From: the human T2T-CHM13v2.0 reference genome, Homo sapiens
Assembly (NCBI RefSeq): GCF_009914755.1
Contig: NC_060926.1
Strand: one strand, 5' to 3'
Length of the DNA: 64,000 nt
Below, in pieces: positions 36,300 through 44,746 of this stretch (positions are counted from its first letter, which is position 1; each line of letters begins with the position of its first letter). The notes under the pieces were generated by a model. The model was not told where the DNA came from, ran no database searches, and saw only the letters and a list, made by a program, of their open reading frames with translations. A program made the translations under genes and the position numbers.

Positions 36300-36739
36300 C
36301 GTCTAAACAATAAGTGGAGTAAAAAAAGAAGAAATAAAAATTATCAGCCTACTGGAAAGCAAGAAGGGTGGAAAAAAGAGGCACAAAAATGCATGGTAAA
36401 CGGAAAGTTCAAATAATATATTAGAAATAAATCCAAATACACTGGATAGCACCATGATAATGTATGCTGGTAAAATTTTTTCACTAAATGACAGATTCTC
36501 AACCTAGAGTTTCATGAAAGCCCAGCTATATTCATGATATTTATAAGAGAGACACTTAAACTTTGACTGCATAAACCATTCACTTAAAATATAATTGTAT
36601 AGGAATAGAAAAGGAGATACCACAAAGTAATTATCAAAAACAATCTGGCACAGGTATATTAATATCAGAGAAAACAGACCTTAAGAAAAGAAATTATTAG
36701 GGTTAATAGGGTATGTAATTATAATAACTTTCTTTTTTT

Positions 36740-37141
36740 ATAATTTAAGGGAGTTTAATTGAGCGATGAATGATTTGCAAATTGGGCAGCCCTTGAAACA
36801 CAACAGATTCACGAAGACTCCAGGTGTGCCTCATAGTCAGAACAAATTTATAGACAGAAAAGGTAAAGTGATGTACAGGAATCGGAAGTGAGGTACAGAA
36901 ATAGTGAGATTGGTTACAGCTCAGCGTTTGCCTTATTTGAATGCAGGTTGAGCATTCAGCAGTCTATGAGTGGTTGAAGTATGGCCGCTGGTGGCCAACA
37001 CTCAGCCATTGTTACAGGTGCATACTATTAACTTAGGTTTTCAATTTTGTCTGACTGTTAAGCTAGTTTACAGTACATCGACAAGGACTCAAATATAGAA
37101 GTACGGAGTCCTTTTCAGGTCATATTTAGTTTGCTTTAACA
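36740..37141 (-). mobile_element. MER57 3' LTR, U3+R only
   Basis: Minus strand begins TGTTAAAGCAAACTAAATATGACCTGAAAAGGACTCCGTACTTCTATATTTGAGTCC (recalled MER57A/B). TATAAA at 36852-36847 and ATTAAA at 36759-36754. Preceded by PPT AAAAGGGGGGAAT. Confidence 0.88.
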
Positions 37142-37677
37142 ATTCCCCCCTTTTGGTCATTTTCTCAATTTTGAGAGACTGACTGAAACTTTAGTCATTG
37201 ATGTTACTATCACTATTGTAAATGTACTTACATGGTTTTGAAACTCACTGGGAAACAGTAGAACAGTGGGTTTTGCAAGGAGAGAATAAGGACTGAGTAG
37301 AGAGTAGCTCCTTACGCTGCAACATTCTGTTTACAGGAAAAGAAAAACAAAACCTGGTCTATTCTAGGATCTATGTGTTTTCTTAAAGTCTTAGTTTGAT
37401 TAATATCACATTTAGCATGAGTGACTCCATTTTAGTTTTGTTTAGTTTGTTGGGAACTAGTGCATGAGCTCAGTCCAAATTAAAGGCCTCCCATAATTTT
37501 GTTTTTTAAAAAATTCCCCCTTTTTGGTCACGTTCTCAGATGAAAGTCTGACCAAAATTTAGGGCCTTAGCCCCACTCTCAGTTACCATCATTTTGGATT
37601 TCCAGTCTCAGCACATTATTCATAGGTTATGGTGTATTTGTGATCACACTTTTCTTTCAGCTTTTGTTGTTCCAGTT

Positions 37678-38035
37678 GGAGACCATTTGACGTTCTACAG
37701 ATGGCTGCATGCAAACATTTAAAACCTTTGAGAGAATAAAGCGCACCAGGGAGACTATTATGACTATTGGGAGGATAATACCAAGAGTTTGGAGTATGCT
37801 CCTTAGCCAGGTTCCCCATAAACCAAACCATATAAAATTAAATAGATTAAAGAATGAGCCAGATGAAGAGTCTACTCACTTGATTAAGTGCTCTTTTCAT
37901 TAATCCCCTTCAACTGAATTTTTATCATCTACATTTGATGTATTTCTCCATAGGCCACAAGTGTCAGCAGCTGCGCAGATACTTCTCTGTTTAGCCAATT
38001 CTATTATTTAGCATAACTCTCACAAGATAATTTAA
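37678..38035 (-). pseudogene. env transmembrane-subunit relic of the MER57 element
   Basis: Minus strand translates WFGLWGTWLRSILQTLGIILPIVIIVSLVRFILSKVLNVCMQ (membrane anchor, 37830-37700). Upstream are VMLNNRI and ICAAADTCG, remnants of the ISD and CX6CC motifs, frameshifted. Confidence 0.7.
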
Positions 38036-38308
38036 AGTCTATTGTGTATCTATAGCCTTTAAAGTAGAATTTGCTGTAGAACCTATTGTGAGGGTGACAT
38101 TTCTTATTATTGCGTCCTTTATTCTAAACGATGGAAAAAGGACCTAACAAATGATGTACTTTAGAAGAGTGAAGGCCTCCTGACAATGTTCTCTTTAATC
38201 CATGATGTGGGTTGAGAGGATTTTTGACTGATTATGAGGCAATGCTTGTGCCACCTGTTTCTCACCCATATTGGGCCTTCATCCTTTATCTATTAAAATA
38301 TAAGTTTA

Positions 38309-38605
38309 AGCCAGGCATGGTAGCTCAGGTCTGTAATCCCAACACTTTGGGAGGCCAAGGTGGGCAGATCATGAGGTCAAGAGATCAAGACCATCCTAGC
38401 CAACATGGTGAAATCCTGTCTTTACTAAAAATACAAAAATTAGCTGGGCGTGGTGGTGTGTGTCTGTAGTCCCAGCTACTTGGGAGGCTGAGGCAGGAGA
38501 ATCGCTTGAACCCGGGTGACGGAGCTTGCAGTGAGCTGAGATCATGCTGCTGCACTCCAGTCTGGGTGACAGAGCAAGGCTCCATCTCAAAAAAAGAAAA
38601 AAAAA
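38309..38605 (+). mobile_element. AluSc-like element inside the MER57 internal region
   Basis: Full dimer with GAGGTCAAGAGATCAAGACCATCC (Sc diagnostic) and an A-tail. Confidence 0.9.
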
Positions 38606-38607
38606 TT

Positions 38608-41625: not shown

Positions 41626-41700
41626 TGCTTCCTAAGCAGGGAACCAAACCTGGACCACCAGTGTACAAGGCCAAAATCATAGCTACTGAGCTATAGCACA
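41626..41700 (-). pseudogene. Decayed tRNA-like segment inside the MER57 internal region
   Basis: Minus strand TGTGCTATAGCTCAGTAGCTATGATTTTGGCCTTGTACACTGGTGGTCCAGGTTTGGTTCCCTGCTTAGGAAGCA. A-box-like TAGCTCAGTAG at tRNA positions 8-18 and B-box-like GGTTTGGTTCCC at the expected spacing. Confidence 0.4.
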
Positions 41701-43477
41701 GGGTTATATCTATTGTCTTTCCCAGAAGGAGTCTAGAGTAGTTAATTTTGAGCTTGCGAAGGCTTTTAACTACTCAAGATAATTTTTACAGCTAACTATG
41801 ACATAAACCCAAAAATTCCTGTGCTATGGAAGGTGGAGACCAGGAGAAAATACTGCCACATGGTTACAAGGTTACGTTCTCAAGGACATAAAACAAGATG
41901 GAGACCCCATCCAGTTTTTTTGGTTTGTTTCAGGGACCTGCAGGAAAGTTTATTATTGACCAGCTTGCTGTGCCAAATTGATCAGTGAGCTTATGTGGTC
42001 CTAAGCCCATGTTTTATCCTGAGGTACCCCTCGACCCAGAAAAAAGAACACAAATACATCAGTTTAAGGCTCGCCTCAGAATTACTTTTTGCATTAATCA
42101 AAACTTTACAGAAGAGATAAACAGTGATTTTTACCATTCATTCAACCATTTGCACACAGAGAGAGAAGCCAGAATCTGACTGGCAAGAAATTCCTACCCT
42201 TTTGCCGGCATGCCAGGCTTCTGGGTTCCCTTTCCCCGAGCGGCCCCAGTGACTCAGCTTGCCACACTATCGTGCTGGAGCCAACCGCATCATAAAGGAA
42301 AATTAACTTTTTCTTCTGGCCAGAGTAAAATATGTGTGATAAAACATAGACATTAGCCACTCTCCTTAGCACCCAATATCAAACTGGCAAGGCTTAAATT
42401 TGCCCCTAGTTAGGCCCCATCATTGTTAACCCAACCTCTGACAAGGAGCTTCAACACGTGGTGTCTACACAAGATGATTGCCCTAAGTAATAGAAAAGTT
42501 AAGAAAGGGAAAGGTGAGAGAGAAAAGCATTACCTGTGGCAGGGTGGGGAAGGCGAAATGATCAGGGAGGCCAAAGAAAGACCCACCCATTGCAGCGACC
42601 CTGAAAAGTTCAGGCGGTTGCTTCTGGGTAGCAAAGGGATCTTTTCCAGCAGTCCCATCATCTCTCAGATTTCCCCTTTTAGGGATGAAAAAGCTCCCCA
42701 TGTCCCATGATCCTGTACATGCCTAATCCCGTCACCCACAGCTGACAGCAAAGAGTGCAAGGCAGATTATTCCAAACAGAATAGCAGTTGACATGCTGTA
42801 GTGCCAAACTCATTCTTAGCCAAAAGGGACTTTACCGAGCGCCCTCATTTTTTAAATGTACTTTAATGCGTTGTTGTTAATTTGGAATGTTCCACAGTAA
42901 GTTATCTTCAGTAGGATTTTGCTGTTTCTGTAAGACTTCACTGCCTCCCAGGCCTAATGTATAAGCCAGAAGGAACTCAGTTTTCCAGAAATTAAGGGTC
43001 TCATTTTTACCTGAAATACTGGCTTTACTCTCAGGTTCTCTCAATTAACTTAGCCAATTATTTTTCCTACCTAAGCGTGCAAGAAAAATGAAACAAAGGG
43101 GTAGAACTCAAAAATCCCTGTGAATTTTCAAAAGACAAATGTTATAATCCCTGCAATATTGCTGCTTACTACCAACTCCTTTCTGACCCAGTCAGACGTA
43201 AGAGGCTTCTAACTGGATCCAAGCCAGTTAATTCCCAAATCAAATCCATTCCTGGATCCAGTCCAGTTTCTGTCGTTACTCCAAACCCAGTTTGGATCAG
43301 AAATTTGCTTAAAGAAACTCGGAGAGCTCAAAACAGGAATCCGTGGAGCTGCGAAATCCACGAGGGAGCTTACCCACGATCTCCAGCGCTCTGAGAGATC
43401 AATGGACACCAGTGGGTCCTGCAGGTGCCTTGCATATTCACTCAGGGCTCCTGGGGTCGCTAGAAGCTCCACTTCAG

Positions 43478-43495
43478 ATCCCGCTTCTGACACCC
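43478..43495 (-). other. Primer-binding site, tRNA-Leu(CAA) type
   Basis: Plus-strand ATCCCGCTTCTGACACCC versus the tRNA-Leu(CAA) 3' end ATCCCACTTCTGACACCA, 2 nt from the U5 terminus. Confidence 0.8.
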
Positions 43496-43497
43496 TC

Positions 43498-43597
43498 TGA
43501 TAAAAAAAAAAAAAAAAAAACTTCAGCCAAATTAATTTAAAGGAGTTTAATTGAGCAATGAAGATTCCAGAATCACAGCAGATTCACAGAGACTCCG
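43498..43597 (-). mobile_element. MER57 5' LTR, R+U5 only
   Basis: Homologous to 36741-36822, plus the U5 end (..GGCTGAAGTTTT..ATCA). Stops abruptly at the TSD. Confidence 0.88.
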
Positions 43598-44746
43598 GTA
43601 ATTATAATAACTTTCAAATCACCAGAAATATAAAATATTTCTCAGTCTGTAGGCATATAACAATGTTGGTTCAAAATATATAAAGTAAAAATGGACAGGT
43701 TTATATGAAAAAAATACAATTGGATAACTTAACACCTTGCTCAAAATCAATAAATTATGCTAAACAAAAGTGGTAATGATTAGGAAATTTTAAATAACAC
43801 ACTTAAAAGCTTATTCTAATGGTCAATCTATAGGCTCTCAAAAGAAATAGAGAATACATATTCTTTCAAGTGCATATAGAATATTTACAAAAATAATCTA
43901 CCCATCACCCTCAGGGGAAATCTCTATATATAATAAAAAATCGATATGATGTAGAATGATTTTCTAGACCAAAATGCAACCAATAAATAAAATAAGTAAG
44001 GAAAGAAAGATCTTACTCTTATCTTGGCAAACTAAAAAATTAAATTATAAACAACTTTGGATCAAAGAAGAAATAGTAATGTAAATTATGACATTAGAAT
44101 TGAATTTCAGTGAATACATTACACTAGAAATTTGTGGGATCCCATTATAGAATTTCTTAATGAGACATTTTTAGCTCATTATACGTATCTAAGAGAAAAC
44201 AAGACAGAAAAATATGAGTTAAGCATTGAACTTAGAAAGTTAGATTTAAAGCAGTAGAATAAAATCAAGAAAGTGGAAAACAGTGTACAAATGTACAAAC
44301 TGATGAATTGAATGATAAAAAATGAAGATTAACAACAACAACAAAAAACTAGTTGAGACTGGCAAAGTTTATTAAGAACAAAAAACAGGAGGTACAAATA
44401 ACCAGTGTTAGAAATAAAAATGGGGACATAACTAGAATAAATAAATGATGCGTGTTTGTTGACCTATGTGTGTTTGTTGACCTATGAAGGTACCGTTGAA
44501 AAATAATCCTACGTCTTATACTAGGTTCTTCGATGCTACTCATTTTATTCATGTTTGTTTTGAAGCTTTAAAGAACTGTCAGGTTCTCTTTAAATCGCAC
44601 TGCATCAATGCCCCTGAAAAACTATCATAGAGGCTTTTTGGACGTACACATTAGTGAGGTATTTTGATATATCTTCAAATACTTTATATACTTCAAAACT
44701 TTAATGTGGTATAGCTGAGATTCTATATTGATATAGGGACAGTTGT

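What the first reader, a model, noticed from the sequence alone, without database searches (positions are those of the whole stretch)
36715..43615. MER57 endogenous retrovirus copied by L1 machinery: a processed pseudogene of genomic viral RNA, not a provirus
Seen in sequence (minus strand): the element begins inside the LTR with no U3 and runs R-U5, PBS(Leu), about 6.3 kb internal, PPT, U3-R. It stops 14 nt after ATTAAA in an A7 tail where U5 should be. A perfect 18-bp duplication (GTAATTATAATAACTTTC, 36715-36732 and 43598-43615) flanks it, and the target reads TTT|GAAAG on the element strand. Established: retroviral integrase yields two complete LTRs and a 4-6-bp TSD, whereas L1 target-primed reverse transcription yields an RNA-shaped copy, poly(A), a roughly 7-20-bp TSD and a TT/AAAA-like site. 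This route is well known for HERV-W. Inference: a non-autonomous MER4-group/MER57 element also used L1 in trans, a second mobilisation route I do not recall being described for this family. Standard repeat annotation would show only two 'truncated LTRs'.
Basis: partly seen in the sequence, partly recalled or inferred. Interest (0 to 1): 0.85.

Follow-up and report, generated by a model that had tools for sequence, protein, structure and literature searches.

The report
Endogenous retrovirus RNA copied by L1
A 6.9-kb non-coding endogenous retrovirus in this human chr2 window was inserted as a copy of its full-length RNA by the LINE-1 machinery rather than by retroviral integration, a route best known for HERV-W and shown here to be rare in this other family.

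Summary
On the minus strand, 43597-36733 reads C + R-U5-PBS, about 6.35 kb of internal sequence, PPT-U3-R, then T+A7. It is flanked by an exact 18-bp duplication found nowhere else in the window.

Other genomic copies of the same LTR are complete (TG...U3-R-U5...CA), and at least 7 solo copies have exact 4-bp duplications. This element lacks exactly U3 at its 5' end and U5 at its 3' end. A TATAAA lies about 31 nt upstream of the R start, and an ATTAAA lies 13-14 nt before the tail. The target reads TTT|GAAAG.

The two flanks are collinear in old L1-like paralogues that carry one copy of the target. The internal part is collinear with two-LTR proviruses, so the template was unspliced and full-length.

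L1-mediated retrocopying of ERV genomic RNA is therefore well supported (about 0.9). It is rare:
- 0 of the 29 nearest 5' ends share this structure.
- 2 of the 39 nearest 3' ends carry A-rich tails.
- Genome-wide, about 19 loci have R followed by an A-run, against 891 normal R-U5 junctions.

The family name MER57 could not be tested. L1 retrocopies are already in print for HERV-W, HERV-H and HML-2, so this is a new member of a known kind.

The parts
43598..43615 (.). Target-site duplication, copy at the element's 5' end (element is on the minus strand)
   Evidence: Exact 18-mer, one of only 2 copies in the window. It is preceded on the element strand by ...GATTT, giving TTT|GAAAG.
43597..43597 (-). 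One extra base (C) between the duplication and the R start
   Evidence: Sequence reading. Normal copies have T before GGAGTC.
43533..43596 (-). 5' R (64 nt; 17-nt internal deletion relative to the 3' R), with no U3 in front
   Evidence: Alignment to the 3' R gives 58/64. U3 is present upstream of R in 26 of 29 other 5' ends.
43498..43532 (-). U5 (ATTTGGCTGAAG-T19-ATCA); the T run is expanded relative to other copies
   Evidence: Matches the U5 seen after R in 27 of 29 other LTR copies.
43478..43495 (-). Primer-binding site, complementary to the 3' end of tRNA-Leu
   Evidence: 14/15 match to the last 15 nt of two tRNA-Leu(CAG) genes. The same 18-mer with TGG is found in other copies.
37155..43477 (-). 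Internal region with no recognisable gag, pol or env; collinear with two-LTR proviruses of the family
   Evidence: 0 Pfam families in all frames. Leader, two middle segments and the 3' segment lie in the same order and spacing in proviruses at C4:42.65M, C3:9.32M and C5:40.58M.
38285..38652 (+). Secondary Alu insertion followed by (TA)22 inside the element
   Evidence: Masked stretch in the hub table. TRF found (TA)22.5 at 38608-38652. Window 38298-38597 matches Alus in about 33 unrelated loci.
37143..37154 (-). Polypurine tract AAAAGGGGGGAA
   Evidence: Sequence. The same tract stands before the 3' LTR in L005, L006, L021, L026 and L028.
36822..37141 (-). U3 of the 3' LTR (starts TG; TATAAA about 31 nt before the R start)
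   Evidence: 86-90% identical to the 39 other scored genomic matches.
36741..36821 (-). 3' R, ending 13-14 nt after ATTAAA (36759-36754), with no U5 behind it
   Evidence: Elsewhere R continues into TAATTYGGCTGAAG... (891 genomic junctions).
36733..36740 (-). Remnant poly(A) tail (T + A7)
   Evidence: Sequence.
36715..36732 (.). Target-site duplication, copy at the element's 3' end
36500..36714 (+). Left flank: remnant of an old L1-like repeat (ORF2 5' region by my reading)
   Evidence: 6 weak paralogues. Collinear with the right flank in 4 of 6. No Pfam hit.
43616..43900 (+). Right flank: continuation of the same old repeat

Best explanation
A full-length, unspliced, polyadenylated transcript of a non-coding ERV1-type element was reverse-transcribed into the genome by LINE-1 target-primed reverse transcription. 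Transcription had started at the R start of the source's 5' LTR. The RNA was cleaved and polyadenylated at the R end of the source's 3' LTR.

Inferred steps: L1 endonuclease nicked the bottom strand at a TTTC/AAA site inside an old L1 remnant. The T-rich 3' end primed on the poly(A) tail, and the whole RNA was copied up to its 5' end. Staggered second-strand cleavage 18 bp away produced the 18-bp duplication.

The result is R-U5-PBS...PPT-U3-R-A(n). This copy has no promoter (no 5' U3) and cannot be used again by integrase.

Shown: the anatomy, the contrast with normal copies, the single-copy target in paralogues, and collinearity with proviruses. Inferred: the enzyme (L1 ORF2p), the order of events, and the date. 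Nearest relatives are 88-90% identical, the duplication is 18/18, and four normal proviruses have 9-14% LTR-LTR divergence. Together these give a rough age of tens of millions of years.
For: 1. The exact 18-bp flanking repeat is unique in the window.

2. The 5' end lies at the R start and the 3' end at the poly(A) site. Independent signals sit at the right distances: TATAAA about 31 nt before the R start, and ATTAAA 13-14 nt before the tail.

3. Normal copies are complete and differ:
- 27 of 29 other LTR copies have U5 after R, and none has a tail.
- 26 of 29 other 5' ends have U3.
- 33 of 39 other 3' ends have U5.
- 4-bp duplications are exact in 7 solo LTRs.

4. The target TTT|GAAAG differs from the L1 consensus TT|AAAA at one position. 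The consensus is recalled (Jurka 1997).

5. The two flanks, joined with one copy of the 18-mer, align across the junction in 4 of 6 paralogous copies of the host repeat. L064 has only a 2-nt gap at the junction.

6. The same 3' signature with independent duplications occurs elsewhere:
- C7: a 1.9-kb 5'-truncated copy with a 16-bp duplication at a TTT|AAAA site.
- C9: a copy bounded by a 15-17-bp duplication. Its 14-mer core occurs 22 times in the genome, and two of those lie 4258 nt apart.
- R-only copies: L105 with an exact 13-bp duplication, and L112.

7. The internal order and spacing equal those of two-LTR proviruses.
Against: - The tail is only T+A7, which is short even for an old insertion.
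- The target motif is one base off the consensus.
- The 5' R carries a 17-nt deletion and 6 of 64 mismatches relative to the 3' R. I explain this by differences between the parent's LTRs or by later change, without proof.
- No orthologous empty site could be examined. The paralogue test uses 57-77% identical sequences and cannot resolve the 18-mer base by base.
- None of the 29 nearest 5' ends shares the structure, so this is a single full-length instance.
- Pfam did not recognise the flanks as L1.
Confidence: 0.9

Rival explanations
1. An ordinary provirus was integrated by retroviral integrase. It later lost the U3 of its 5' LTR and the U5 of its 3' LTR by two independent deletions, and the 18-bp repeat is a coincidence.
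For: Truncated LTR ends do occur in this family. L053 is cut inside R, L055 lacks most of its U3, and L089 has R cut at position 65 with no tail.
Against: - The deletions would have to end within 1-2 nt of the transcription start and of the poly(A) site.
- They would also have to remove the 4-bp duplications and create an exact 18-bp repeat abutting both ends (0 of 100 shuffles).
- They would have to leave an A7 run exactly at the cleavage site.
- None of the truncated copies seen has this combination.
Confidence: 0.03
2. The insert is part of a longer read-through or chimeric transcript, for example an L1 3' transduction or a host transcript that used the LTR poly(A) site, and so is not a copy of the element's own genomic RNA.
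For: Exactly this kind of composite exists at C9:98669342-98673616. There a single duplication encloses an L1 3' end with its A-rich tail, followed by the 3' part of an element of this family ending in R-A10.
Against: In the window the duplication abuts the R start directly, with only one extra base. No foreign sequence lies between the duplication and R. The start coincides with that of three R-only retrocopies.
Confidence: 0.03
3. A cDNA or RNA of the element was captured at a chromosome break without L1 endonuclease. This could be endonuclease-independent L1 insertion or end-joining capture of an aberrant retroviral reverse-transcription product.
For: The tail is short and the target motif is not a perfect TT|AAAA.
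Against: From established knowledge (recalled), break-capture events typically lack long duplications and often carry target deletions. Retroviral minus-strand synthesis starts at the PBS and would not copy a poly(A) tail. Here an 18-bp duplication and a tail are both present.
Confidence: 0.04

Closest known systems
HERV-W (HERV17/LTR17) processed pseudogenes made by L1
   Same: Same architecture: R-U5...U3-R-poly(A), no 5' U3, no 3' U5, long duplications and an L1-type target. Basis: abstract of PMC5537654 and passages of PMC5775608.
   Different: A different ERV1 family. The PBS is Leu-type and the internal region has no recognisable genes.

For HERV-W, 135 of 213 loci are processed pseudogenes (PMC5775608 passage). 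Here 0 of 29 other 5' ends and 2 of 39 other 3' ends carry the signature.
Single L1-made retrocopy of HERV-K(HML-2) at 2q32.1, and the retrotransposed HERV-H elements cited with it
   Same: A sporadic L1-type copy of an ERV transcript, with an 8-nt A stretch, a 13-nt duplication and an L1-like target (passages of PMC3590776).
   Different: That HML-2 copy derives from a spliced rec-like mRNA. The present copy is unspliced and full-length, and belongs to another family.
Ordinary processed pseudogenes (retrocopies) of cellular mRNAs
   Same: A copy of a polyadenylated Pol II transcript made by L1 in trans, with a tail, a 7-20-bp duplication and no promoter (established knowledge; PMC5753468 passage).
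   Different: The template is the genome-length RNA of a retroelement that normally spreads by its own route. The product therefore mimics a provirus with two 'truncated LTRs'.
L1 3' transduction
   Same: L1 machinery carrying non-L1 sequence that ends at a downstream poly(A) site. This fits the C9 locus noticed in passing.
   Different: The window element has no L1 sequence at its 5' end.

Membership tests
L1-mediated processed pseudogene (retrocopy) | Collinear with a mature transcript: begins at the transcription start and ends at the cleavage/poly(A) site | tested here: met
   The start lies 1 nt from GGAGTC, about 31 nt after TATAAA. The end lies 13-14 nt after ATTAAA. Three R-only retrocopies share the same start.
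L1-mediated processed pseudogene (retrocopy) | 3' poly(A) tail not present in the source DNA | tested here: met
   T+A7 stands where 27 of 29 other copies have U5. 891 genomic R-U5 junctions were found. The tail is short.
L1-mediated processed pseudogene (retrocopy) | Target-site duplication of about 7-20 bp | tested here: met
   Exact 18 bp; 0 of 100 shuffles gave 2 matches.
L1-mediated processed pseudogene (retrocopy) | L1 endonuclease target, TT|AAAA-like | tested here: met
   TTT|GAAAG, one base off the recalled consensus.
L1-mediated processed pseudogene (retrocopy) | Empty pre-insertion site with one copy of the duplicated bases | tested here: inconclusive
   Only paralogues of the host repeat could be used. 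4 of 6 align across the junction with one copy, at 57-77% identity. No other primate genome was available.
Integrase-made provirus | Two complete LTRs (U3-R-U5) ending TG...CA | tested here: not met
   The 5' LTR lacks U3 and the 3' LTR lacks U5.
Integrase-made provirus | Short duplication typical of the family (4 bp here) | tested here: not met
   18 bp here, against exact 4 bp in 7 solo LTRs.
MER57 / MER57-int (Repbase, Dfam) | Sequence match to the curated MER57 LTR and internal models | not testable with these tools
No repeat library was held.

What I can say:
- The LTR is about 436 nt.
- First-look candidate counts in the genome were 2097 for the LTR and 246 to 1472 for internal segments.
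- The PBS is Leu-type.
- Normal copies have 4-bp duplications.
Non-autonomous ERV | No gag, pro, pol or env coding capacity in the family's internal region | tested here: inconclusive
   0 Pfam families in six frames of this copy with stops read as X and in 10 ORFs. Other copies were not scanned, and there was no positive control.

The most novel reading that the evidence does not exclude
L1 trans-mobilisation may be a general, low-frequency route for this whole group of ERV1 LTR families. That would mean it is neither a one-off here nor a peculiarity of HERV-W.

Genome-wide, about 19 independent loci have the LTR's R followed directly by an A-rich tail, against 891 R-U5 junctions (roughly 2%). 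They fall into three kinds:
- one full-length genomic-RNA copy (this one);
- 5'-truncated and L1-chimeric copies;
- roughly 80-nt 'R-only' copies, which imply that transcripts starting and ending within a single LTR were also templates.

[quoted passage not shown] R-only retrocopies would also give a genome-wide, experiment-free map of ancient LTR transcription starts and poly(A) sites.
Probability: 0.45. Interest if true: 0.55.

Novelty: new member of a known kind. Interest (0 to 1): 0.45.

Why it matters
The element looks like a provirus with two damaged LTRs but is a promoterless RNA copy. This matters for three reasons:
- Dating it by LTR-LTR divergence would be meaningless, because its two R pieces come from one RNA.
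- Counting it as an integration event overstates the family's retroviral activity.
- It shows that the source element was transcribed full-length in the germ line while L1 was active.

The field treats HERV-W as having a special link to L1 (abstract of PMC5537654; discussion passages of PMC5775608). A clean full-length example in an unrelated, non-coding ERV1 family, together with the truncated, chimeric and R-only copies found here, argues that any ERV transcript with a poly(A) tail could be used. On that reading HERV-W differs in frequency, not in kind.

Tried and rejected
Protein domains. Pfam was scanned over 10 minus-strand ORFs, the three sense frames, and the three antisense frames plus 12 flank frames. 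No family was found. The only lines were two sub-threshold chance hits (SNAD2 at E 0.069, LAB_N at E 0.021). I could therefore name no retroviral gene and could not confirm L1 ORF2 in the flanks.

Fetches and searches that did not help:
- L102 and L103 were fetched at the expected distance for full-length 5' ends of the C9 and C7 copies. They held no match, because both copies are shorter.
- The 15-mer search for the C7 duplication found no second copy, because the word ran past the duplication. The 16-bp repeat was found later.
- Upstream pieces of 11 R+tail loci from more distant subfamilies were compared with this LTR. At 60-75% identity I could not tell truncation in U3 from subfamily divergence. 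C18:58.97M and C16:25.77M do extend into internal sequence.

Pattern census. Of the 35 two-mismatch hits examined, 33 are chance A/T-rich matches. This agrees with the control count of 29.

Sources that were unavailable:
- Pavlicek et al. 2002 (PMC155283) is not held. I could not check whether it lists sporadic retrocopies of other families.

Literature searches for a MER57 retrocopy:
- 'MER57' + 'processed pseudogene' returned 5 papers. I read passages of 3, and none describes one.
- 'MER57-int' returned 4 papers, seen as a listing only.
- Three wider searches were also run.
- No supplements were opened. Vargiu 2016 states that processed pseudogenes were not separated from proviruses (passage).

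
Full report
WHAT IS THERE

The 18-mer GTAATTATAATAACTTTC occurs exactly twice in the window, at 36715-36732 and 43598-43615. This holds even with two mismatches allowed, and none of 100 dinucleotide-preserving shuffles gave two matches. 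The neighbouring bases differ, so the repeat is exactly 18 bp.

Between the two copies, read on the minus strand, lie:
- one extra C (43597);
- a 64-nt R starting GGAGTC (43596-43533);
- a 35-nt U5 with an expanded T19 run, ending ATCA (43532-43498);
- GA, then an 18-nt primer-binding site (43495-43478);
- about 6.35 kb of internal sequence;
- a polypurine tract AAAAGGGGGGAA (37154-37143);
- a 320-nt U3 starting TG (37141-36822);
- an 81-nt R (36821-36741);
- T+A7 (36740-36733).

TATAAA lies about 31 nt upstream of the R start, and ATTAAA (36759-36754) lies 13-14 nt before the tail. The two R copies match at 58 of 64 aligned positions, and the 5' copy has a 17-nt internal deletion. The upstream flank reads ...GATTT|GAAAG on the element strand.

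WHAT NORMAL COPIES LOOK LIKE

The window's own genome could be searched. The U3-R piece drew 2097 first-look candidates, of which 40 were scored at 85-90% identity. Thirty loci were returned, one being the window itself.
- In 27 of the 29 others, R runs on into TAATTYGGCTGAAGTTTTTCTTTTATCA, a U5 of about 28 nt ending in CA.
- The other two are interrupted by an Alu inside R.
- None has an A-run after R.
- At least seven solo copies carry exact 4-bp duplications: L003 ATGG, L008 GGGG, L009 ACCC, L013 CCAC, L017 GAAG, L023 ATTT and L029 AAAT.

The family therefore normally integrates as a complete TG...CA LTR element with a 4-bp duplication. That is the signature of a retroviral integrase.

A 301-nt leader query drew 246 candidates, of which 40 were scored. 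Of the 29 other 5' ends returned:
- 26 have U3 directly in front of R;
- L053 is cut inside R;
- L037 has a cut R preceded by an inverted R/U5 piece;
- L055 has a whole R but only about 20 nt of recognisable U3, and its 3' LTR (L005) is complete.

None begins at the R start next to a long duplication.

A 379-nt query from the 3' end of the internal region drew 802 candidates, of which 40 were scored. I therefore fetched 34 stretches of 201 nt and used five loci already held. Of the 39 other 3' ends:
- 33 have U5 after R;
- 3 could not be read (L080, L086, L093: insertions);
- L089 has R cut at position 65 with no tail;
- 2 have A-rich tails directly after R: L097 on C7 and L098 on C9.

IS THE INSERT A FULL-LENGTH, UNSPLICED COPY?

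Two 701-nt segments from the middle of the element each found 40 scored relatives at up to 90% identity. In proviruses that have both LTRs (C4:42.65M, C3:9.32M, C5:40.58M), the leader, the two middle segments and the 3' segment lie in the same order. Their spacings are within a few hundred bases of those in the window:
- leader to first middle segment: 2430 nt here, against 2204, 2474 and 2428;
- first to second middle segment: 950 nt here, against 951, 939 and 962.

These figures are computed from the coordinates. Most of the extra length here is an Alu with a (TA)22 run at about 38285-38652. The template was therefore genome-length RNA.

CODING CAPACITY

No Pfam family was found in ten ORFs or in any of the six frames read through with X at stops. 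The copy is only 10-12% from its nearest relatives, so a family with gag or pol should still have been detectable. I take this as support for a non-coding, non-autonomous element. I did not scan other copies and had no positive control.

PRIMER-BINDING SITE

A motif search for the tRNA-like strand, followed by ARAGORN on 16 short stretches, found two tRNA-Leu(CAG) genes on C16. Their last 15 nt match window 43478-43492 (+ strand) at 14 of 15 positions. Other copies of the family have TGG where this copy has GGG.

THE TARGET

The left flank has six weak paralogues in the genome. Left flank, one 18-mer and right flank were joined in a script as a model of the empty site. Four of the six paralogues (L063-L066) align across the junction in one piece. 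In L064 the junction region aligns with only a 2-nt gap.

Both flanks therefore belong to one old repeat that was split by the insertion, and one copy of the 18-mer is ancestral. By my reading the repeat is the 5' part of L1 ORF2. That recognition is recalled, and Pfam found nothing there. The identities are low (57-77%), so this is a weaker test than an orthologous empty site, which could not be run.

MECHANISM

The combination fits L1 target-primed reverse transcription of a polyadenylated RNA in trans. The elements of that combination are:
- a start at the transcription start;
- an end at the poly(A) site;
- an A-tail;
- an 18-bp duplication;
- a TT|AAAA-like target;
- a family whose own integrations give complete LTRs and 4-bp duplications.

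The enzyme and the order of the steps are inferred from established knowledge of L1, not shown here.

Rival explanations are each given a few per cent:
- Two precise deletions plus a chance repeat.
- A read-through or chimeric template.
- Break capture without the endonuclease.

DATE

The nearest relatives are 88-90% identical. The duplication is 18/18. Four normal proviruses of the family have LTR-LTR substitution divergences of 8.8, 9.2, 12.7 and 13.6%. This points to tens of millions of years, in the broad period when HERV-W retrocopies formed (43-20 Mya according to passages of PMC5775608). It is an inference. The two R pieces of a retrocopy cannot be used as an LTR clock.

HOW COMMON IS THE ROUTE?

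A motif for 'R end followed by an A-run' gave 58 genomic hits, against 29 for the reversed control. A motif for the normal R-U5 junction gave 891 hits, against 0.

I looked at all 58: the window itself, L097, L098, 20.
- 22 are real LTR R-ends followed by an A-rich run.
- Four of those (L106-L109 on C9) share flanks and are duplicates of one event, leaving about 19 independent loci. L121 is doubtful.
- L118 is ambiguous.
- 35 are chance A/T-rich matches.

Among the real ones:
- L105 is an R-only copy of about 80 nt, bounded by an exact 13-bp duplication (AGAAATAAACTTG).
- L112 is an R-only copy with an imperfect duplication of 11-12 bp.
- L117 is R-only, with a long tail and no clear duplication.
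- All three start within 1-2 nt of the same GGAGTC as the window element.
- L111 is cut inside R.
- The others have at least part of U3 in front of R. Several carry an Alu in the tail (L116, L119, L122, L123).
- C18:58.97M and C16:25.77M extend into internal sequence.

Two internal-bearing loci were resolved.

The C7 copy:
- It starts at position ~4577 of the window element.
- It is 1.9 kb long and ends in TAAAATAAAATAAAAT.
- It is bounded by a 16-bp duplication TAAAATGTGTTCATGA (C7:148115388 and 148117325) at a TTT|AAAA site.
- This makes it a classic 5'-truncated L1-type copy.

The C9 copy:
- It is bounded by a 15-17-bp duplication. Its 14-mer core has 22 copies in the genome, two of them 4258 nt apart.
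- It begins with about 170 nt of an L1 3' end and an A-rich tail.
- That is followed by internal sequence of a variant of this family. The 338-nt piece tested lies inside other proviruses of the family.
- It then runs through U3-R-A10.
- This is best read as an L1 3' transduction from an L1 sitting inside a provirus, or as a template-switch chimera.

The L1 route is therefore real and recurrent for transcripts ending at this LTR's poly(A) site, but minor. It accounts for about 2% of R ends, and only one full-length genomic-RNA copy was found among the 30 nearest 5' ends.

WHAT IS KNOWN

[quoted passage not shown] - Passages of PMC3590776 describe one L1-made copy of a spliced HML-2 transcript. 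They state that retrotransposed HERV-H and HERV-W elements had been described before.
- Searches for MER57 together with 'processed pseudogene' (5 papers, passages of 3 read) and for 'MER57-int' (4 papers, listing only) found no description of such a copy.
- Pavlicek et al. 2002 is not held, and no supplements were opened. An earlier listing therefore cannot be excluded.

VERDICT

It is a new family-level example of a known mechanism, found as a clean full-length instance with a few truncated, chimeric and R-only relatives. The family name is unverified.

Noticed in passing
G000 C7:148115388-148117340 (loci L176, L097): A second L1-type retrocopy of the same family. It is 1.9 kb, 5'-truncated at about position 4577 of the window element, and ends R + TAAAATAAAATAAAAT. 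It is bounded by a 16-bp duplication TAAAATGTGTTCATGA at a TTT|AAAA site.
   Followed up: yes
G000 C9:98669342-98673616 (loci L104, L177, L098): One 15-17-bp duplication encloses about 170 nt of an L1 3' end with an A-rich tail, then about 3.9 kb of the 3' part of a variant element of this family (with two or three later Alus), ending U3-R-A10. It looks like an L1 3' transduction out of a provirus, or a template-switch chimera.
   Followed up: partly
G000 C6:139632751 (L105), C4:130889694 (L112), C17:61511188 (L117): 'R-only' retrocopies of about 80 nt: the LTR's R alone plus a poly(A) tail. L105 has an exact 13-bp duplication. They imply short transcripts that start and are polyadenylated within one LTR, and they mark the transcription start.
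   Followed up: partly
G000 C9:39611971, 41075341, 43905717, 78550195 (L106-L109): Four near-identical copies of one U3-R-poly(A) locus of a related LTR subfamily, with the same flanks. Presumably one retrocopy was spread by segmental duplication on chr9.
   Followed up: no
G000 C6:149847449-149853810 (L037, L089): A provirus of the family whose 5' end has a truncated R preceded by an inverted copy of the R-end/U5. Its 3' R is cut at position 65 with no tail. The rearrangement is unexplained.
   Followed up: no
window 38285-38652: An Alu on the + strand, followed by a perfect (TA)22 run, inserted into the element after its arrival.
   Followed up: partly
window 43502-43520: The U5 T-run is T19 here, against TTTTTCTTTT in other copies, so a homopolymer expansion has occurred. 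The 5' R also carries a 17-nt deletion relative to the 3' R and to other copies.
   Followed up: partly
loci L116, L119, L122, L123: In four R+tail loci an Alu sits directly in the A-rich tail. This suggests that old poly(A) tails of these retrocopies served as L1 endonuclease targets.
   Followed up: no
G000 C16:63095923-63096534 (L134, L135): Two tRNA-Leu(CAG) genes lie in inverted orientation about 460 nt apart. Their 3' ends match the family's primer-binding site at 17 of 18 positions, counting CCA.
   Followed up: partly
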